A stretch of DNA of 64,000 nt from a bacterium (GTDB lineage Bacteria > Armatimonadota > Zipacnadia > Zipacnadales > UBA11051). The stretch covers positions 8,193 through 72,192 of the forward strand of contig JAJFUB010000018.1 in NCBI GenBank assembly GCA_021372615.1, written 5' to 3'. Below, piece after piece: positions 48,724-55,387 of the stretch; the stretch's first letter is position 1, and each line of letters begins with the position of its first letter. The position numbers and the translations under genes were made by a program. The notes beneath the pieces were generated by a model that was not told the origin of the DNA, searched no databases, and was given only the letters and a program-made list of their open reading frames with translations.

Positions 48724-48795
48724 AACGGCGGCCTACCCCCCAGCCCCCTCCCTAAAGGGAGGGGGAACGGCAACGGCAGACGGCGACGGCTCAGT
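48724..48795. repeat. family-1 module C solo copy
   Basis: CTACCCCCCAGCCCCCTCCCTAAAGGGAGGGGGAACGGCAACGGC. Confidence 0.75.
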
Positions 48796-50182
48796 ACGCG
48801 CCCTTGCCCAGGATCACGATGGGGAGGGTGCGCAAGAAAATGGCCAGGTCCAGCAGCAGCGACTGGTTGCGGATGTAGTAGAAGTCGTACTCGATGTTGT
48901 CGCGCAAGGGCAAGTCCTTGCGGCCCAGGATCTGCCACAGGCCCGTCAGGCCCGGCAGGGCTTCCAGGCGGCGGCGCTGCCAGGGCTCGTACTGGCTCAC
49001 CAGAAAGGGCATCTCCGGCCGCGGGCCAACGATGCTCATGTCGCCCTTGAGGACGTTGAGCAACTGCGGCAGCTCATCCAGGCTGTACCGCCGCAGCCAC
49101 CGACCCACCGAAGTGATGCGCTCATCGTCGGGCGTGTCGGGCGAGGGCGCATAGGCGTCGGTGTCCGAGCGCATGGTGCGGAACTTGTACATCGTGAACT
49201 CCCGGCCGTGCAGGCCCACCCGCTGCTGCAGGAAGAGTGCCGAGGCGCCGGTCTGGCGGCGGATGGCCAGCGCAATGCCGAGCAGGAGCGGCCCCGTCAG
49301 GACGAGCAGGATCGCGGCGCCCAGGACGTCGCACAGGCGCTTGGCGGTCTGCTGCACCGGGCCGAAGGCGCGCCGCCGCATCTCCAGAACCGGCAGGTCG
49401 GCCGGCCCGGCCAGCTCAGTGGCGGCGGTCAGCACCTGCAGCGGCCCGGCGATGATGAGGAAGTCCACATGCGCGACGTCGCTCTCGCCGATCGCCCGCA
49501 TCAGCGCCTGGCCGGGCAGCTCGGGGTCAGCCACCAGCACCTCGTCCACGCGATGCTCGGCGATGAGCCGCGGCAGATCGTGTAGGACGCCCAGCACCGG
49601 TACCCCCTCGATGGTGGCAGGGGCGCTCTCGCTCACGGTCACGAATCCGGCAACGTCCATGCCAAAGCGGCGATCCTGCAGGCGTGAGAGCACGATGCGG
49701 CCCAGATCTCCGGCGCCGATGATGATGGTGCGCGAGAGCATCTGGCCGCCGGTCAGTACCCGCTGGCGGTAGCGCCCCAGCGTGTAGCGCTCCGCCCACG
49801 TGAGCAGCAGACCCAGGGCCCAGAACTCCAACAGGATGGCGCGCGAGTAGTTGTGGTGGGCCAGGAAGCTGGCGGCGGCGATCATCAACACCGCCAGCGA
49901 GACGGCGCGCAGGTCATCGCCACGGGCGGCGATGGCGTTGAGCGTCCGCCGGGGCTCATACATGCCGACCAGGGCGAACACCACGAACCAGATGGCCATG
50001 ACGATGGGCAGGGCGCGCAGATAGTGGGTGACGGGGTGGCGCAGGGGCTCGAGGAACCAGGGGGCGTAGTAGGCCCGCAAGGCGAAGGCCAGTAGCACCG
50101 CCAGGGCGCAGACGACCAGATCGCTGAGCACCAGGAGCGCGATGAAGTTGTTCTCGAATTGCCGGCGCGGAGAGGCCAACAT
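48791..50182 (-). CDS. polyprenyl-phosphate glycosyl-1-phosphate transferase (bacterial sugar transferase, WcaJ/EpsB-like). Exopolysaccharide or glycan initiation enzyme.
   Basis: Multi-TM N-terminus. C-terminal bacterial sugar transferase signature (LDELPQLLNVLKGDMSIVGPRPEMPF...GLTGLWQI). Confidence 0.8.
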   Translation of the reverse strand: MLASPRRQFENNFIALLVLSDLVVCALAVLLAFALRAYYAPWFLEPLRHPVTHYLRALPIVMAIWFVVFALVGMYEPRRTLNAIAARGDDLRAVSLAVLMIAAASFLAHHNYSRAILLEFWALGLLLTWAERYTLGRYRQRVLTGGQMLSRTIIIGAGDLGRIVLSRLQDRRFGMDVAGFVTVSESAPATIEGVPVLGVLHDLPRLIAEHRVDEVLVADPELPGQALMRAIGESDVAHVDFLIIAGPLQVLTAATELAGPADLPVLEMRRRAFGPVQQTAKRLCDVLGAAILLVLTGPLLLGIALAIRRQTGASALFLQQRVGLHGREFTMYKFRTMRSDTDAYAPSPDTPDDERITSVGRWLRRYSLDELPQLLNVLKGDMSIVGPRPEMPFLVSQYEPWQRRRLEALPGLTGLWQILGRKDLPLRDNIEYDFYYIRNQSLLLDLAIFLRTLPIVILGKGAY

Positions 50183-50196
50183 GACGGGTCAGGGCC

Positions 50197-53574: not shown

Positions 53575-53655
53575 GAGCGCCAGCATCCTGCTGGCAGCCG
53601 TTGCCGTCCGCGCTTGCCGACGGCCTGTGCCGGCTGGCAGCCGGCGCTCCTACGG
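53575..53655. repeat. family-2 element variant (GCCGGCTGGCAGCCGGCGCTCCTACGGC) between the flavodoxin-like gene and the DUF2207 gene
   Basis: Perfect 8-bp stem GCCGGCTG/CAGCCGGC. Related to 1618-1650 and 34875-34905. Confidence 0.7.
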
Positions 53656-53656
53656 C

Positions 53657-55387
53657 TCAGAAGCTACTCACACAAGCACTGTGGCACGCGCTATGGCACG
53701 CCGAATGGCATACACAGGCGCTATGGCACGCGCTGTGGCAGGCATCGTGGACACAGGCGCTGTGGCAGGCGTCGTGGACGCAGGCGCTGTGACAGGCCGA
53801 GTGGCAGGCGCTGTGGCAGGCGTCGTAGCCGACGGCGGAGGCCACGCGGTCAGCCAGGCTCTGGGCGCTGTCGGCGACGGCTGCCGCCGTGCTCTCGACC
53901 TTCTGGGCCGCGCCGCGCGCGAAGTCCTCGACGCCGCTAGCGATGCTGTCGGCACCACGGGTGAGGGCGTTGTCGCCGCCAGTGTACACCGTGTCCAGGT
54001 TGTTGTCGCGCCAGCGCTGGTCGTAGTCGTCGTGCAGGATCAGCCACGGCAGGTTCTGGTTCCAGCCGTCCTGCGACCGCGTCCAGGTGTCGCGGCGTCG
54101 CGCTTCGTCCCAGCGCCGCTCGATCTCGTCCTGGTAGTGCTGCCGCGTGGCCGCCTTGTCGGCGTTCCAGACCTTGATCTCCAGTGACTTCGCTACGGCG
54201 TCGAGCACATAGGGCACCCGCGCCTTGTCCAGCGTGCCGTCCTCGGCCACAGAGGCCAGCAGAGCCTTCTCGTAGTCGGCCAGGTCCGGCGCCTGCGGCT
54301 GAAGGATCTCCAGTTGCATGGGCCGCCGGTTGACGATGTTGACGATCCCGCGCGCCGCCAGCGACATCACGAGCAGCGTGAGGACCTTCGCCGAGTCGCC
54401 CAGGTACATCGCCGCCTCAATGGCGTTGAGGTCCGGCACGACGCCGGGGGTCTCGTACGTCTCGATCTCGATCTCCGGCGCCTCGTAGAGCTTCTTGGTC
54501 GGCGGGGGCTTGTGCCCCAGCACCCACAGGCGCGAGACGCCGACGGTCAGGAAGGTGAGCAGGCCGAGGGCCAGCAGTATCTCCAGGGGGCTCAGGCCCG
54601 GGCCGCGGCGGCCCTTCTCGGCCTGCTCGCCCTGCGGGTGCCGCCGCATGTCCTCGATCTGCCCCTGCGTCGGCACGGAGAGGCCTGCGGCGGGGACGTA
54701 GAACTTGACGACAGCGTCGGCGCGCAGCGAGGTGTTCCGCTGCTTGAGTTGCACCGACAGGTATGCCTTGCCGGTGTTGTCGGGCGTGGGGTAGAAGTCC
54801 ACGTCGTCGAAGCCGCCAAACGCCTGCTTCTCGGTCAGCAGCCCTGCCGCCTCGACGACCTGCTGGGTCACTTGCTCGGGCTTGTCTATCCCGGCGGGCA
54901 GCTCGAAGGGGGTGATGAGGTCAATCTGCTGCAGCGTGATGGGCAGGTCCCACTGCGGAGGCGACCAGGCGACGGCCAGGTAGTCCTTGCCGTTGACGGT
55001 GGTGTGGTCCACGATGGGTGTGACAGCGAGGTACTTGATGGTGACGGTGTAGACGGTGCCGCGCTCGGTGGTGAGGCCCAGGTCCGCGCGGTACTTGCCG
55101 TCACCCAGGGGCTCCAGCGTGACCTTGGAGGTGCCGCTGTCGGACGCGATGGTGCTGCTGACGATCTTGTGGGAGGGGCGGAAGGGCCCGAGGGTCTTGA
55201 TCTGCGAGCGCCCGCCCTCGAGGTCCTTGAACACCAAGTCATACGCCACGGTGCAGGCGCCGTCGGAGTGGATGACCACGCGGCTGTGGGTCTTCTGCAG
55301 CTCGACCGGGGCGGCGTGCACGAGGCCGCTCGCCACCGTGAGGAGGATGAGGGTGAGCAGGCAGAGCCTCAGGTGTGACATGCGCAT
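53657..55387 (-). CDS. DUF2207-like membrane protein (signal peptide, extracellular domain, TM helices) with a C-terminal Cys/His-rich (A-C-H-S)n tandem-repeat tail
   Basis: Signal peptide [25 protein letters not shown]. Central hydrophobic helices ([33 protein letters not shown]). The last about 50 residues, [55 protein letters not shown], are encoded by a 12-nt tandem repeat at 53676-53826. Confidence 0.6.
   Translation of the reverse strand: [576 protein letters not shown]
53676..53826. repeat. 12-nt tandem repeat (about 12.5 units; consensus plus-strand GCGCTGTGGCAG / GCACTGTGGCAC), coding for the (A-C-H-S)n tail of the DUF2207 protein on the minus strand
   Basis: Seen directly. The unit length is a multiple of 3, so the reading frame is preserved. 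Variant units encode ACVHD. Confidence 0.85.

What the first reader, a model, noticed from the sequence alone, without database searches (positions are those of the whole stretch)
48791..55387. Minus-strand operon: DUF2207 membrane protein with an (A-C-H-S)n Cys/His-rich repeat tail, flavodoxin-like reductase, RRE-bearing radical SAM/SPASM enzyme, coiled-coil protein and sugar transferase. Candidate protein-tail modification system.
Five minus-strand genes are separated by only 113, 34, 37 and 14 bp, so they form a likely operon. The first encodes a signal-peptide DUF2207-type membrane protein whose last about 50 residues are a pure tandem repeat ([27 protein letters not shown]...ACVSSF, about 13 Cys and 12 His). 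The second is a flavodoxin-like electron donor. The third is a radical SAM/SPASM enzyme. The CxxxCxxC cluster of the rSAM enzyme sits about 95 residues from the N-terminus behind a PqqD-like leader-recognition (RRE-type) domain. That architecture is used by RiPP maturases such as sactisynthases, SCIFF/ranthipeptide maturases and PqqE/PqqD. Several known rSAM/SPASM systems act on low-complexity repeat substrates, for example Haft's His-Xaa-Ser repeat Hxs system, Cys-rich SCIFF and KxxxW streptide. The pairing of a C-H-S-A repeat tail with an adjacent rSAM/SPASM enzyme and reductase suggests post-translational modification of the repeat, perhaps thioether or C-C crosslinks, or a metal-binding tail. 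The co-transcribed coiled-coil protein and polyprenyl-phosphate sugar transferase suggest an envelope or glycan connection. I do not recognise this exact combination as a described system.
Basis: partly seen in the sequence, partly recalled or inferred. Interest (0 to 1): 0.85.

Follow-up and report, generated by a model that had tools for sequence, protein, structure and literature searches.

The report
Membrane protein tail with radical-SAM partner
A membrane protein ends in a 55-residue cysteine/histidine repeat that is almost letter-for-letter identical from bacteria to archaea and nearly always sits beside a dedicated radical SAM enzyme, which points to an undescribed and widespread system that chemically remodels a protein tail.

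Summary
Five minus-strand genes lie at the stated coordinates. The first ends in [56 protein letters not shown], with 13 Cys and 11 His.

The repeat is not a frameshift artefact. In 38 orthologous tails every Cys and His is invariant. Tail protein identity is 94% while third codon positions are only 49% identical, and the protein bodies are 35-45% identical.

Orthologues occur in Armatimonadota, Chloroflexota, Caldisericota and archaeal MAGs. In 38 of 42 evaluable loci a PqqD(RRE)-radical SAM-SPASM gene lies on the same strand within 5 kb. A ~400-aa coiled-coil protein accompanies it in 33 loci.

The FMN reductase occurs only in some Armatimonadota loci. The sugar transferase is a lineage-specific neighbour.

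Distant relatives with other Cys-repeat tails, such as ...CACACACAGCACACAGGGR, also sit directly upstream of their own RRE-rSAM-SPASM gene (63 of 69 evaluable loci).

No Pfam or NCBIfam model reaches its cut-off for the tail protein or the specific enzyme clade, and the literature searches found nothing.

Best reading: the cytoplasmic tail is the enzyme's substrate. It is probably cross-linked through its cysteines, but the chemistry is untested. I class it as a new variant of a known kind, of high interest.

The parts
53657..55387 (-). Gene for the 576-aa tail protein. Predicted layout: signal peptide (res 1-26), extracytoplasmic beta-sandwich (res 28-232), one TM helix (res 267-291), cytoplasmic winged-helix-like domain (res 322-470), helical linker and Cys/His tail.
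53660..53827 (-). The 56-residue tail (Y521-F576): [56 protein letters not shown]. Proposed substrate (core) region.
   Evidence: It is invariant in Cys and His across 38 orthologues, with 94% protein identity against 49% third-position identity. It is conserved in bacteria and archaea.
54515..54589 (-). Transmembrane helix (res 267-291), followed by HKPPPTKK. This places the C-terminal 285 residues, including the tail, in the cytoplasm.
   Evidence: AF2 helix 267-291. The topology rests on the positive-inside rule (inference).
53568..53656 (-). REP-like hairpin directly after the tail-protein stop codon.
   Evidence: Inverted repeat I2. RNA fold of -70 kcal/mol, z -4.9. Analogous 26-28 bp hairpins follow the tail gene in L003 and L005.
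52974..53543 (-). NADPH-dependent FMN reductase family protein (189 aa). Lineage-specific accessory and possible electron donor.
   Evidence: PF03358 at 71 bits. Homologues are next to the rSAM only in L005 (87% identity) and L133 (67% identity). It is absent from the Chloroflexota, Caldisericota and archaeal loci.
52900..52972 (-). REP-like hairpin between the FMN reductase and rSAM genes. It lies inside the spurious 5' extension of the longest rSAM ORF.
   Evidence: Inverted repeat I1, 28-nt arms, 96% complementary.
51473..52861 (-). RRE(PqqD-like)-radical SAM-SPASM enzyme, 462 aa. RRE is approximately res 1-90. The CxxxCxxC motif is C124/C128/C131. Seven universally conserved SPASM Cys are C337, C351, C369, C406, C409, C415 and C419, plus a clade-specific C416.
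   Evidence: Pfam and NCBIfam results. Cys conservation. AF2 model with pTM 0.86. Best fold matches are SkfB, SuiB, anSME and PqqE.
50197..51435 (-). Coiled-coil protein of about 400 aa (likely start at 51387). Third conserved component; no known family.
   Evidence: No Pfam, NCBIfam or PDB sequence match. Homologues lie directly after the rSAM in 33 loci, including all five archaeal ones.
48791..50182 (-). Polyprenyl glycosylphosphotransferase. Neighbour only, not part of the conserved system.
   Evidence: TIGR03025 at 387 bits, above the cut-off. It is syntenic only in Armatimonadota loci L001, L003, L005 and L133.
55480..55548 (-). REP-like hairpin upstream of the tail gene, with a perfect 23-nt arm. 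The same arm sequence occurs after the tail gene in L003.
   Evidence: Inverted repeat I4. L003 fold.

Best explanation
This is a conserved three-component system: tail protein, RRE-radical SAM-SPASM enzyme and coiled-coil protein.

The tail protein is a type I membrane protein. It has an extracytoplasmic beta-sandwich, one TM helix, a cytoplasmic winged-helix-like domain, and a flexible helical linker ending in a 55-residue (A-C-H-S)n tail that faces the cytoplasm.

The adjacent enzyme binds this protein through its N-terminal PqqD-like recognition domain. It uses 5'-deoxyadenosyl radical chemistry to modify the tail at many repeated sites. The most likely product is a set of intramolecular cysteine-derived (thioether-type) cross-links. 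That would turn a floppy Cys/His repeat into a defined, rigid, probably metal-binding or redox-active structure that stays tethered to the membrane protein. The coiled-coil protein is an obligate partner, acting as a scaffold or adaptor.

In this Armatimonadota lineage an FMN reductase has been recruited, plausibly as electron donor for the Fe-S clusters.

Shown: gene content, domain architecture, extreme protein-level conservation of the tail, and cross-domain synteny. Inferred: that the tail is the substrate, its topology, and the role of the reductase. Speculative: the exact chemistry and the physiological role.
For: 1. Tail conservation. All 13 Cys and 11 His are invariant in 38 tails from four phyla. 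Even the irregular 'punctuation' (CVHD, CVC, CVSxF) is conserved. Protein identity is 94% while third codon positions are 49% identical and the bodies 35-45% identical. This is much tighter than generic metal binding would require.

2. Synteny. In 38 of 42 evaluable tail-protein loci the rSAM is on the same strand within 5 kb, and in 26 of these it is directly adjacent. Archaeal loci keep the same three genes in a different order. In 5 of 6 rSAM-centred look-ups the tail protein lies just upstream.

3. Co-variation of tail class and enzyme. Relatives with ACHD-, HDACV- and (CA)n-type tails each have their own RRE-rSAM-SPASM gene directly downstream, 45%, 34% and 32% identical to this one. For the (CA)n class this holds in 63 of 69 evaluable metagenome loci.

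4. Enzyme architecture. PqqD, Radical_SAM and SPASM domains all score above Pfam cut-offs. The rSAM and SPASM cysteines are conserved. The AF2 model shows a 3-strand/3-helix N-terminal domain. Its best full-length fold matches are the RRE-bearing peptide maturases SkfB (thioether) and SuiB.

5. Topology. The tail is placed on the cytoplasmic side, where an Fe-S enzyme can act (plus the positive-inside rule).

6. Precedents. rSAM enzymes are known to mature tandem-repeat substrates and full-size proteins. PapB forms Cys-Asp thioethers (abstract of PMC9413430). HxsB/C mature HxsA, which carries HxS repeats (PMC13128918).
Against: There is no chemical evidence of any modification.

Four of 42 tail-protein loci (L015, L025, L026, L027) and one rSAM locus (L133) lack the partner within the DNA available.

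AF2 gives the tail pLDDT below 50, so there is no structural support for a defined fold.

No N-terminal leader peptide of the classical RiPP kind exists, and what the RRE recognises is unknown.

The enzyme's best NCBIfam scores are with the tetrapyrrole enzymes AhbD and NirJ2 as much as with peptide maturases, all far below cut-off.

In this clade eight SPASM-region Cys are conserved. An open cluster coordination site for substrate Cys, as in some thioether synthases, therefore cannot be claimed.

(CA)n tails lack His and Ser/Asp, so the acceptor residue, if the chemistry is shared, is unclear.
Confidence: 0.6

Rival explanations
1. The rSAM does modify the tail, but not by cross-linking. One option is L-to-D epimerisation at repeated positions (YydG/EpeE- or PoyD-like), which could give an alternating D/L peptide. 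Another is Cbeta oxidation of Cys (anSME-like).
For: anSME and the epimerase EpeE are among the structural matches (ranks 7 and 44). Strict 2- or 4-residue periodicity ((CA)n, (ACHS)n) would suit regular alternate-site chemistry. rSAM/SPASM enzymes are known to perform these reactions (established knowledge).
Against: The invariant residue across all tail classes is Cys. The closest RRE-bearing Cys-rich-substrate systems make thioethers. anSME lacks an RRE and uses a C/S-x-A/P-x-R motif, which is absent here.
Confidence: 0.18
2. The tail is simply a metal- or Fe-S-binding (or thiol-redox) module of the membrane protein. The neighbouring rSAM acts on something else, such as the coiled-coil protein, a tetrapyrrole or a lipid. 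The two are linked only functionally.
For: The tail is very dense in Cys and His, including overlapping CX3CH and CX4CH spacings. The best NCBIfam scores of the rSAM are to AhbD and NirJ2. Accessory redox proteins occur nearby: an FMN reductase here and an HdrD-like Fer4+CCG protein in L048/L049. Some loci have the tail protein without a nearby rSAM.
Against: The enzyme carries a PqqD-type peptide-recognition domain above the Pfam cut-off. Each different tail class has its own co-diverged rSAM. Positional invariance of Ala, Ser and Val, as well as Cys and His, exceeds what metal chelation needs. No other conserved small-peptide candidate is present.
Confidence: 0.14
3. The tail is a RiPP core. 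After modification it is cut off and released or exported as a natural product, with the 520-residue membrane protein acting as a giant leader.
For: The RRE-rSAM-SPASM architecture is typical of RiPP clusters. The C-terminal position of the repeat resembles a core peptide.
Against: No protease or exporter gene is conserved in the 47 ACHS-type or 80 (CA)n-type loci. The body of the protein is itself conserved and folded. The system looks vertically conserved across phyla rather than patchy like an antibiotic cluster.
Confidence: 0.04
4. The repeat is a low-complexity or frameshift artefact, and the gene order is coincidental.
For: In a 68% GC genome all frames are open. One homologue in the protein database (P0002) reads the tail in another frame.
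Against: P0002's contig L001 is riddled with frameshifts, and the ACHS frame reappears there. GC3 is 0.92 in the called frame. The codon-level pattern across 38 loci shows selection on the ACHS reading frame. Synteny recurs in more than 100 loci.
Confidence: 0.01

Closest known systems
Sactipeptide/ranthipeptide maturases with fused RRE (SkfB, AlbA, CteB/SCIFF, PapB/freyrasin)
   Same: The domain order is the same: N-terminal PqqD-like RRE, rSAM core, SPASM/Twitch domain. The substrate gene is adjacent. The substrate is Cys-rich and, for PapA and SCIFF, has regularly spaced Cys. SkfB is the best fold match. PapB makes one Cys-Asp thioether per tandem repeat (PMC9413430 abstract).
   Different: Here the substrate is the C-terminal tail of a 576-aa integral membrane protein, not a 40-60-aa leader-core peptide. 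No protease or exporter is present. The repeat unit is A-C-H-S (or C-A in relatives). NCBIfam scores are far below the cut-offs of StsB (97 against 625) and AlbA (73 against 850). A coiled-coil third partner is conserved. The distribution spans bacteria and archaea with near-identical substrate sequence.
HXS system (HxsA-D; His-Xaa-Ser repeats)
   Same: rSAM enzymes mature a short tandem repeat embedded in a full-size protein that also carries another domain. The product is a protein, not a released small peptide (PMC13128918).
   Different: HXS uses two rSAMs plus HxsD. HxsA is a periplasmic peptidoglycan-binding effector with five HxS repeats and acts in phage defence. Here there is one rSAM and a Cys-based repeat with H-S adjacent, not H-x-S. 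The protein is membrane-anchored with a cytoplasmic tail. HxsC-type models score far below cut-off, and there is no PADLOC hit beyond generic rSAM and coiled-coil similarity.
DUF2207 (PF09972/PF20990) and TIGR04222 membrane proteins with low-complexity Gly/Cys C-termini
   Same: The overall architecture is shared: signal peptide, beta-sandwich ectodomain, TM helix, cytoplasmic helical domain and low-complexity C-terminal tail. Sub-threshold HMM similarity is seen. phmmer links the ACHS family to proteins ending ...CACACACAGCACACAGGGR.
   Different: The window protein reaches neither model's cut-off. From memory, classical DUF2207 proteins are usually discussed with LemA neighbours and no enzyme partner. 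I found no literature linking DUF2207 to radical SAM enzymes.
QhpD/QhpC and anSME (rSAM/SPASM enzymes acting on proteins)
   Same: SPASM enzymes that act on Cys residues of protein substrates. From memory, QhpD makes intraprotein Cys-Asp/Glu thioethers. anSME ranks 7th by fold.
   Different: Neither has a fused RRE or a tandem-repeat substrate. Their substrates are soluble enzyme subunits or sulfatases with defined motifs. There is no significant sequence-family membership.
ACGX-repeat system (TIGR04340 rSAM) and other Haft in-silico rSAM/peptide pairs
   Same: An rSAM/SPASM enzyme is paired with a peptide built of A-C-x-x-type tetrapeptide repeats. The family name is shown; the repeat description is from memory.
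   Different: The rSAM scores 83 bits against a cut-off of 400. From memory, ACGX peptides are small stand-alone peptides, not tails of membrane proteins.

Membership tests
RRE-bearing radical SAM/SPASM peptide maturases (functional class) | CxxxCxxC radical SAM cluster motif within a Radical_SAM domain | tested here: met
   PF04055 at 102 bits. C124/C128/C131 are invariant in 35 aligned homologues, including distant tail classes.
RRE-bearing radical SAM/SPASM peptide maturases (functional class) | C-terminal SPASM domain with the multi-Cys auxiliary cluster motif | tested here: met
   PF13186 at 40.5 bits. Seven Cys are invariant (C337, C351, C369, C406-x2-C409-x5-C415-x3-C419), plus C416 in this clade.
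RRE-bearing radical SAM/SPASM peptide maturases (functional class) | N-terminal PqqD-like RiPP recognition element | tested here: met
   PF05402 at 34.4 bits against a cut-off of 23.4. The AF2 model has a three-strand plus three-helix N-terminal domain, res 1-90. Full-length fold matches are to SkfB and SuiB.
RRE-bearing radical SAM/SPASM peptide maturases (functional class) | Adjacent short precursor peptide with leader and core | tested here: not met
   The only conserved Cys-rich candidate is the tail of a 576-aa membrane protein. No conserved small ORF was found in the loci.
RRE-bearing radical SAM/SPASM peptide maturases (functional class) | Demonstrated covalent modification of the substrate | not testable with these tools
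   This needs co-expression and mass spectrometry.
Characterised rSAM/SPASM equivalogs (PqqE, AhbD, NirJ, MftC, AlbA, StsB, SkfB, HxsC, ACGX, ScmE/F, GeoRSP) | Score at or above the NCBIfam curated cut-off | tested here: not met
   The best is AhbD at 136 bits against 500. PqqE scores 123 against 381, MftC 86 against 265, AlbA 73 against 850 and ACGX 83 against 400.
DUF2207 (Pfam PF09972 N-domain / PF20990 C-domain) | HMM match at the gathering threshold | tested here: not met
   The window protein has no hit even at E<=10. Orthologues score 17-21 bits against a cut-off of 24.4. Nine of 61 wider relatives match at E<=1e-3, best 9.4e-8.
DUF2207 (Pfam PF09972 N-domain / PF20990 C-domain) | Architecture: signal peptide, beta-rich ectodomain, TM, cytoplasmic region, low-complexity C-terminus | tested here: met
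   AF2 model. Tails are listed.
TIGR04222 domain-containing membrane proteins | HMM match at or above 43 bits | tested here: not met
   Orthologues score 18.4 and 21.6 bits on the cytoplasmic domain. The window protein has no hit.
HXS antiphage system | HxsA with His-Xaa-Ser repeats plus the HxsB/HxsC rSAM pair and HxsD | tested here: not met
   The tail has C-H-S-A units with no H-x-S. There is a single rSAM. The HxsC4 model scores 99 against 500. No specific PADLOC hit.
SCIFF / ranthipeptide system | A ~45-aa SCIFF peptide and its dedicated maturase equivalog | tested here: not met
   No SCIFF-family model is among the hits listed for the rSAM (the best 25 of 77 families are shown), and the tail protein has no NCBIfam hit. 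The substrate is a 576-aa protein.

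The most novel reading that the evidence does not exclude
An ancient system shared by Bacteria and Archaea. A dedicated radical SAM enzyme converts the ultra-conserved Cys/His tail of a signal-transducing-type membrane protein into a covalently cross-linked, metal-binding or redox-active prosthetic structure that remains tethered to the protein. That would be RiPP-style chemistry used to build a built-in cofactor on a full-length membrane protein. 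The same logic would explain the long-unexplained Cys-repeat C-termini of the whole DUF2207-like superfamily: (CA)n, (ACHD)n and (ACHS)n tails, each with its own co-evolved maturase. An even bolder sub-reading, at a few per cent, is that the overlapping CX3CH/CX4CH spacings mark covalent tetrapyrrole or other cofactor attachment sites served by an AhbD/NirJ-like enzyme.
Probability: 0.3. Interest if true: 0.9.

Novelty: new variant of a known kind. Interest (0 to 1): 0.8.

Why it matters
Radical SAM/SPASM maturases are known almost entirely from small secreted peptides and a few cofactor precursors.

Here the same enzyme architecture is locked to the cytoplasmic tail of a large membrane protein. 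The tail is conserved as strictly as the most conserved proteins known, across four phyla and two domains of life. All loci recovered here come from uncultured MAGs and metagenome contigs (Anaerolineae, Armatimonadota, Caldisericota, Bathyarchaeia).

If the tail is modified, three things follow. It defines a new substrate class (protein-tethered, not released). It is probably a new product structure. It also gives the first functional handle on the DUF2207-like superfamily, whose Cys-repeat tails have had no explanation.

The proposal is directly testable by co-expression and mass spectrometry with a substrate fragment of about 100 residues.

Tried and rejected
1. Word-indexed protein searches with the tail protein, with and without the tail, returned only 5-6 truncated or frameshifted fragments. 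That looked like an orphan gene. Exhaustive phmmer (311 hits) and DNA-level locus scans showed the family is large.

2. The frameshift hypothesis was raised by P0002 reading the tail in another frame. It was rejected: contigs L001 and L002 are error-ridden and the ACHS frame is recovered in them, and codon statistics confirm the frame.

I used database representatives instead. The tail itself stayed at low confidence.

5. Defence-system membership was rejected. PADLOC shows only generic rSAM-core (viperin) and coiled-coil (LmuB) similarity.

6. A riboswitch or known RNA upstream was rejected. There is no Rfam hit in the window.

7. The intergenic hairpins might have been system-specific attenuators. 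They are members of a REP-like family (GTAG heads) also found elsewhere in the window, so they are not specific, although they may still affect relative expression.

8. An open coordination site on an auxiliary cluster, as an argument for thioether chemistry, was dropped. An eighth Cys (C416) is conserved in this clade.

9. Literature searches for [8 protein letters not shown], DUF2207 plus radical SAM, TIGR04222 and Cys-rich tail plus SPASM found nothing relevant. One search was swamped by DNA primer strings.

10. The sugar transferase and Band7/SPFH neighbours as parts of the system were rejected. They are syntenic only within Armatimonadota.

Full report
**What is in the window.** Five minus-strand ORFs occupy 48791-55387 exactly as described. 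All have GC3 of about 0.9 against GC2 of about 0.45, the signature of true reading frames in this 68% GC genome.

Pfam and NCBIfam confirm three of the five products:
- An NADPH-dependent FMN reductase family protein (52974-53543).
- A PqqD + Radical_SAM + SPASM enzyme.
- An EPS-type polyprenyl glycosylphosphotransferase (48791-50182; TIGR03025 at 387 bits, above its cut-off).

The 412-aa coiled-coil protein and the 576-aa tail protein match no Pfam or NCBIfam model.

Homologues are 462-465 aa and begin M(T)DLQRF. This places the rSAM start at ATG 52861, not at the TTG of the longest ORF. The 112-bp gap so created holds a 28-nt-arm hairpin.

The closest relative is locus L005, from an uncultured Armatimonadia MAG (83-89% protein identity). 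The window is therefore most likely from Armatimonadota.

**The tail is real and under extreme protein-level selection.** The last 56 residues are [56 protein letters not shown], with 13 Cys and 11 His.

One database homologue (P0002) reads this region in another frame. Its contig, and a second one (L002), are full of frameshifts, and three-frame translation recovers the same ACHS tail in both.

A scan of species-representative genomes returned 41 loci. They come from Armatimonadota, Chloroflexota (Anaerolineae, Thermoflexales and others), Caldisericota and archaeal MAGs labelled Bathyarchaeia, Thermoproteota or Nitrososphaerota. All end in essentially the same tail.

Across 38 full tails every Cys and His is invariant, and so are most Ala, Ser and Val, including the irregular CVH[DS] and C[VDNH]C punctuation. 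Mean pairwise tail identity is 94% at the protein level but 74% at the DNA level and 49% at third codon positions. Ser codons flip between AGY and TCN. The rest of the protein is only 35-45% identical. This excludes an artefact, recent transfer, or DNA-level conservation.

**Anatomy of the tail protein.** An AF2 model (61-sequence alignment, mean pLDDT 81) gives these elements:
- A signal peptide.
- A confident beta-sandwich (res 28-232).
- One TM helix (res 267-291), followed by a basic patch.
- A confident winged-helix-like cytoplasmic domain (res 322-470).
- A low-confidence helical linker and tail.

The positive-inside rule puts the tail in the cytoplasm, where an oxygen-sensitive Fe-S enzyme could reach it (inference).

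The 'DUF2207' label is only remotely right. The window protein has no hit. Orthologues score just under the PF09972 and TIGR04222 cut-offs. Nine of 61 wider relatives match PF09972, best E 9.4e-8.

**Synteny.** tblastn of the window proteins against all tail-protein loci shows the rSAM on the same strand within 5 kb in 38 of 42 evaluable loci. It is directly adjacent in 26 of them.

The five archaeal loci keep the same genes in the order rSAM, coiled-coil, tail protein.

The coiled-coil protein follows the rSAM in 33 loci, including all archaeal ones.

In the reverse direction, the rSAM family is large and about 58-60% identical across phyla. In 5 of 6 rSAM-centred look-ups an ACHS-tail protein lies just upstream. 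The exception, L133, has FMN reductase + rSAM + coiled-coil + sugar transferase but no tail gene within 5 kb.

The FMN reductase occurs only in the window, L005 and L133. The sugar transferase occurs only in Armatimonadota loci. In Chloroflexota a ~165-aa two-TM zinc-ribbon protein follows the coiled-coil gene instead.

The conserved core is therefore tail protein + rSAM + coiled-coil protein, not the five-gene set.

**A superfamily pattern.** Exhaustive phmmer found 311 representative relatives. Their C-termini fall into several Cys-repeat classes:
- (ACHS)n...VSSF.
- (ACH[DS])n...ACVSGGAH.
- HDACV/HSACV repeats.
- SCACACVSCACACACVSCACACASGGAG.
- GGGCACACACAGCACACAGGGR.

Look-ups of one member each showed a PqqD-rSAM-SPASM gene directly downstream for the ACHD, HDACV and (CA)n classes. 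These enzymes are 45%, 34% and 32% identical to the window enzyme. The contig for the SCAC class ended too soon to tell.

A metagenome scan with the (CA)n class returned 80 loci with an invariant ...CACACAGCACACAGGGR end. In 63 of 69 evaluable loci the rSAM is nearby, and in 55 it is directly downstream. A ~131-aa two-TM zinc-ribbon protein lies upstream in 68 of 80.

Different tails thus come with different, co-diverged maturase-like enzymes. This is what is expected if the tail is the substrate.

**The enzyme.** C124/C128/C131 form the rSAM motif. Seven SPASM cysteines are invariant across all tail classes, and an eighth (C416) is conserved in this clade.

No NCBIfam equivalog is approached: AhbD scores 136 against 500, PqqE 123 against 381 and AlbA 73 against 850.

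By sequence the nearest solved structures are PqqE, a GDGT synthase, SkfB, BlsE, CteB and SuiB.

The AF2 model (pTM 0.86) has a three-strand/three-helix N-terminal domain. It is most similar over its full length to the RRE-bearing maturases SkfB and SuiB, then to anSME and PqqE.

**Mechanism.** The best-supported reading is that the enzyme docks on the tail protein through its RRE and modifies the repeat at many sites.

I favour Cys-derived thioether cross-links for three reasons. Cys is the one residue common to all tail classes. Known RRE-bearing enzymes acting on Cys-rich or tandem-repeat substrates make thioethers; PapB is an example. The third position of the repeat alternates between Ser and Asp in relatives, and both are known acceptor types (from memory).

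This chemistry is inference only. Epimerisation, Cys oxidation, or a scaffold role for a metal or cofactor remain open.

The physiological role is unknown. An ectodomain + TM + cytoplasmic domain + modified tail + coiled-coil partner suggests a membrane-tethered structural, metal-binding or redox module. The accessory redox proteins (FMN reductase here, an HdrD-like Fer4+CCG protein in L048/L049) fit either electron supply to the enzyme or redox chemistry of the product.

**Comparison and novelty.** The closest known systems are:
- Sactipeptide and ranthipeptide maturation (SkfB, AlbA, CteB/SCIFF, PapB).
- The recently characterised HXS system, where rSAM enzymes mature an HxS-repeat region of a full-size effector protein (PMC13128918).
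- SPASM enzymes acting on proteins (QhpD, anSME).

This system shares their enzyme architecture. It differs in five ways: the substrate class (tail of an integral membrane protein), the repeat, the conserved coiled-coil partner, the lack of protease or exporter genes, and the cross-domain ultra-conservation.

Neither partner reaches any Pfam, NCBIfam or PADLOC family cut-off. Full-text searches found no description.

I class it as a new variant of a known kind, of high interest because it is widespread, sharply defined and immediately testable.

Noticed in passing
window 55480-55548, 53568-53656, 52900-52972; also 37693-37754 and 61952-62010: A family of REP-like near-perfect hairpins with 23-29-nt arms, several beginning GTAG. 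Three of the five longest in the window fill the intergenic gaps of this cluster and bracket the FMN reductase gene. L003 and L005 have 26-28-bp hairpins right after their tail genes, and L003's arm sequence equals the window arm at 55480. They may set relative expression of the tail protein against the enzyme, or mark an insertion point for the reductase gene.
   Followed up: partly
L048/L049 and L053-L132 (metagenome loci): A large sister family of membrane proteins ends in an invariant ...CACACACAGCACACAGGGR. It has its own PqqD-rSAM-SPASM gene directly downstream (55 of 69 evaluable loci) and a ~131-aa two-TM zinc-ribbon protein upstream (68 of 80). In L048/L049 an HdrD-like Fer4+CCG protein follows the rSAM. 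None of these reaches a Pfam or NCBIfam family cut-off.
   Followed up: partly
L010:12331-12822, L052:9612-10109 and 19 other Chloroflexota loci: A ~165-aa protein with two TM helices and a C-terminal zinc ribbon follows the coiled-coil gene in 21 ACHS-type loci. It is weakly similar to the 131-aa protein of the (CA)n systems. No counterpart was found in the window cluster.
   Followed up: partly
L133:2662-9073: An Armatimonadota-like locus with FMN reductase (67% identical to the window's), rSAM, coiled-coil and sugar transferase, but an unrelated 546-aa gene on the opposite strand where the tail gene would be. The reductase therefore tracks the rSAM rather than the tail gene.
   Followed up: partly
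L039, L040, L042, L043 (Caldisericota): The tail-protein ORFs are about 880 aa. They carry an extra N-terminal region of about 300 residues, not present in the other phyla, while keeping the same tail.
   Followed up: no
(databases): The word-indexed 5.8-billion-protein search returned only truncated or frameshifted fragments of this family, whereas exhaustive phmmer found 311 representatives. Full-length members seem to be poorly captured. Contigs L001 and L002 carry many frameshifts that split the tail protein, rSAM and transferase genes.
   Followed up: partly
window 53660-53827 (tail): The repeat creates overlapping CX3CH, CX4CH and CXCH spacings that resemble variant c-type haem-binding motifs. 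(CA)n relatives lack His, and the tail is predicted to be cytoplasmic, so this is probably coincidental. It was not tested.
   Followed up: no
window 59635-60648; 44578-45693 and 60873-61964; 57789-58901; 55611-56915: Context genes are a rubrerythrin-Fur pair, two URO-D-like genes (one also downstream of the cluster in L003), a zinc-ribbon/GYF/DUF1559 prepilin-type protein, and an SPFH/Band 7 protein with a double zinc ribbon. The SPFH protein is syntenic upstream of the tail gene only in Armatimonadota (L003, L005).
   Followed up: partly
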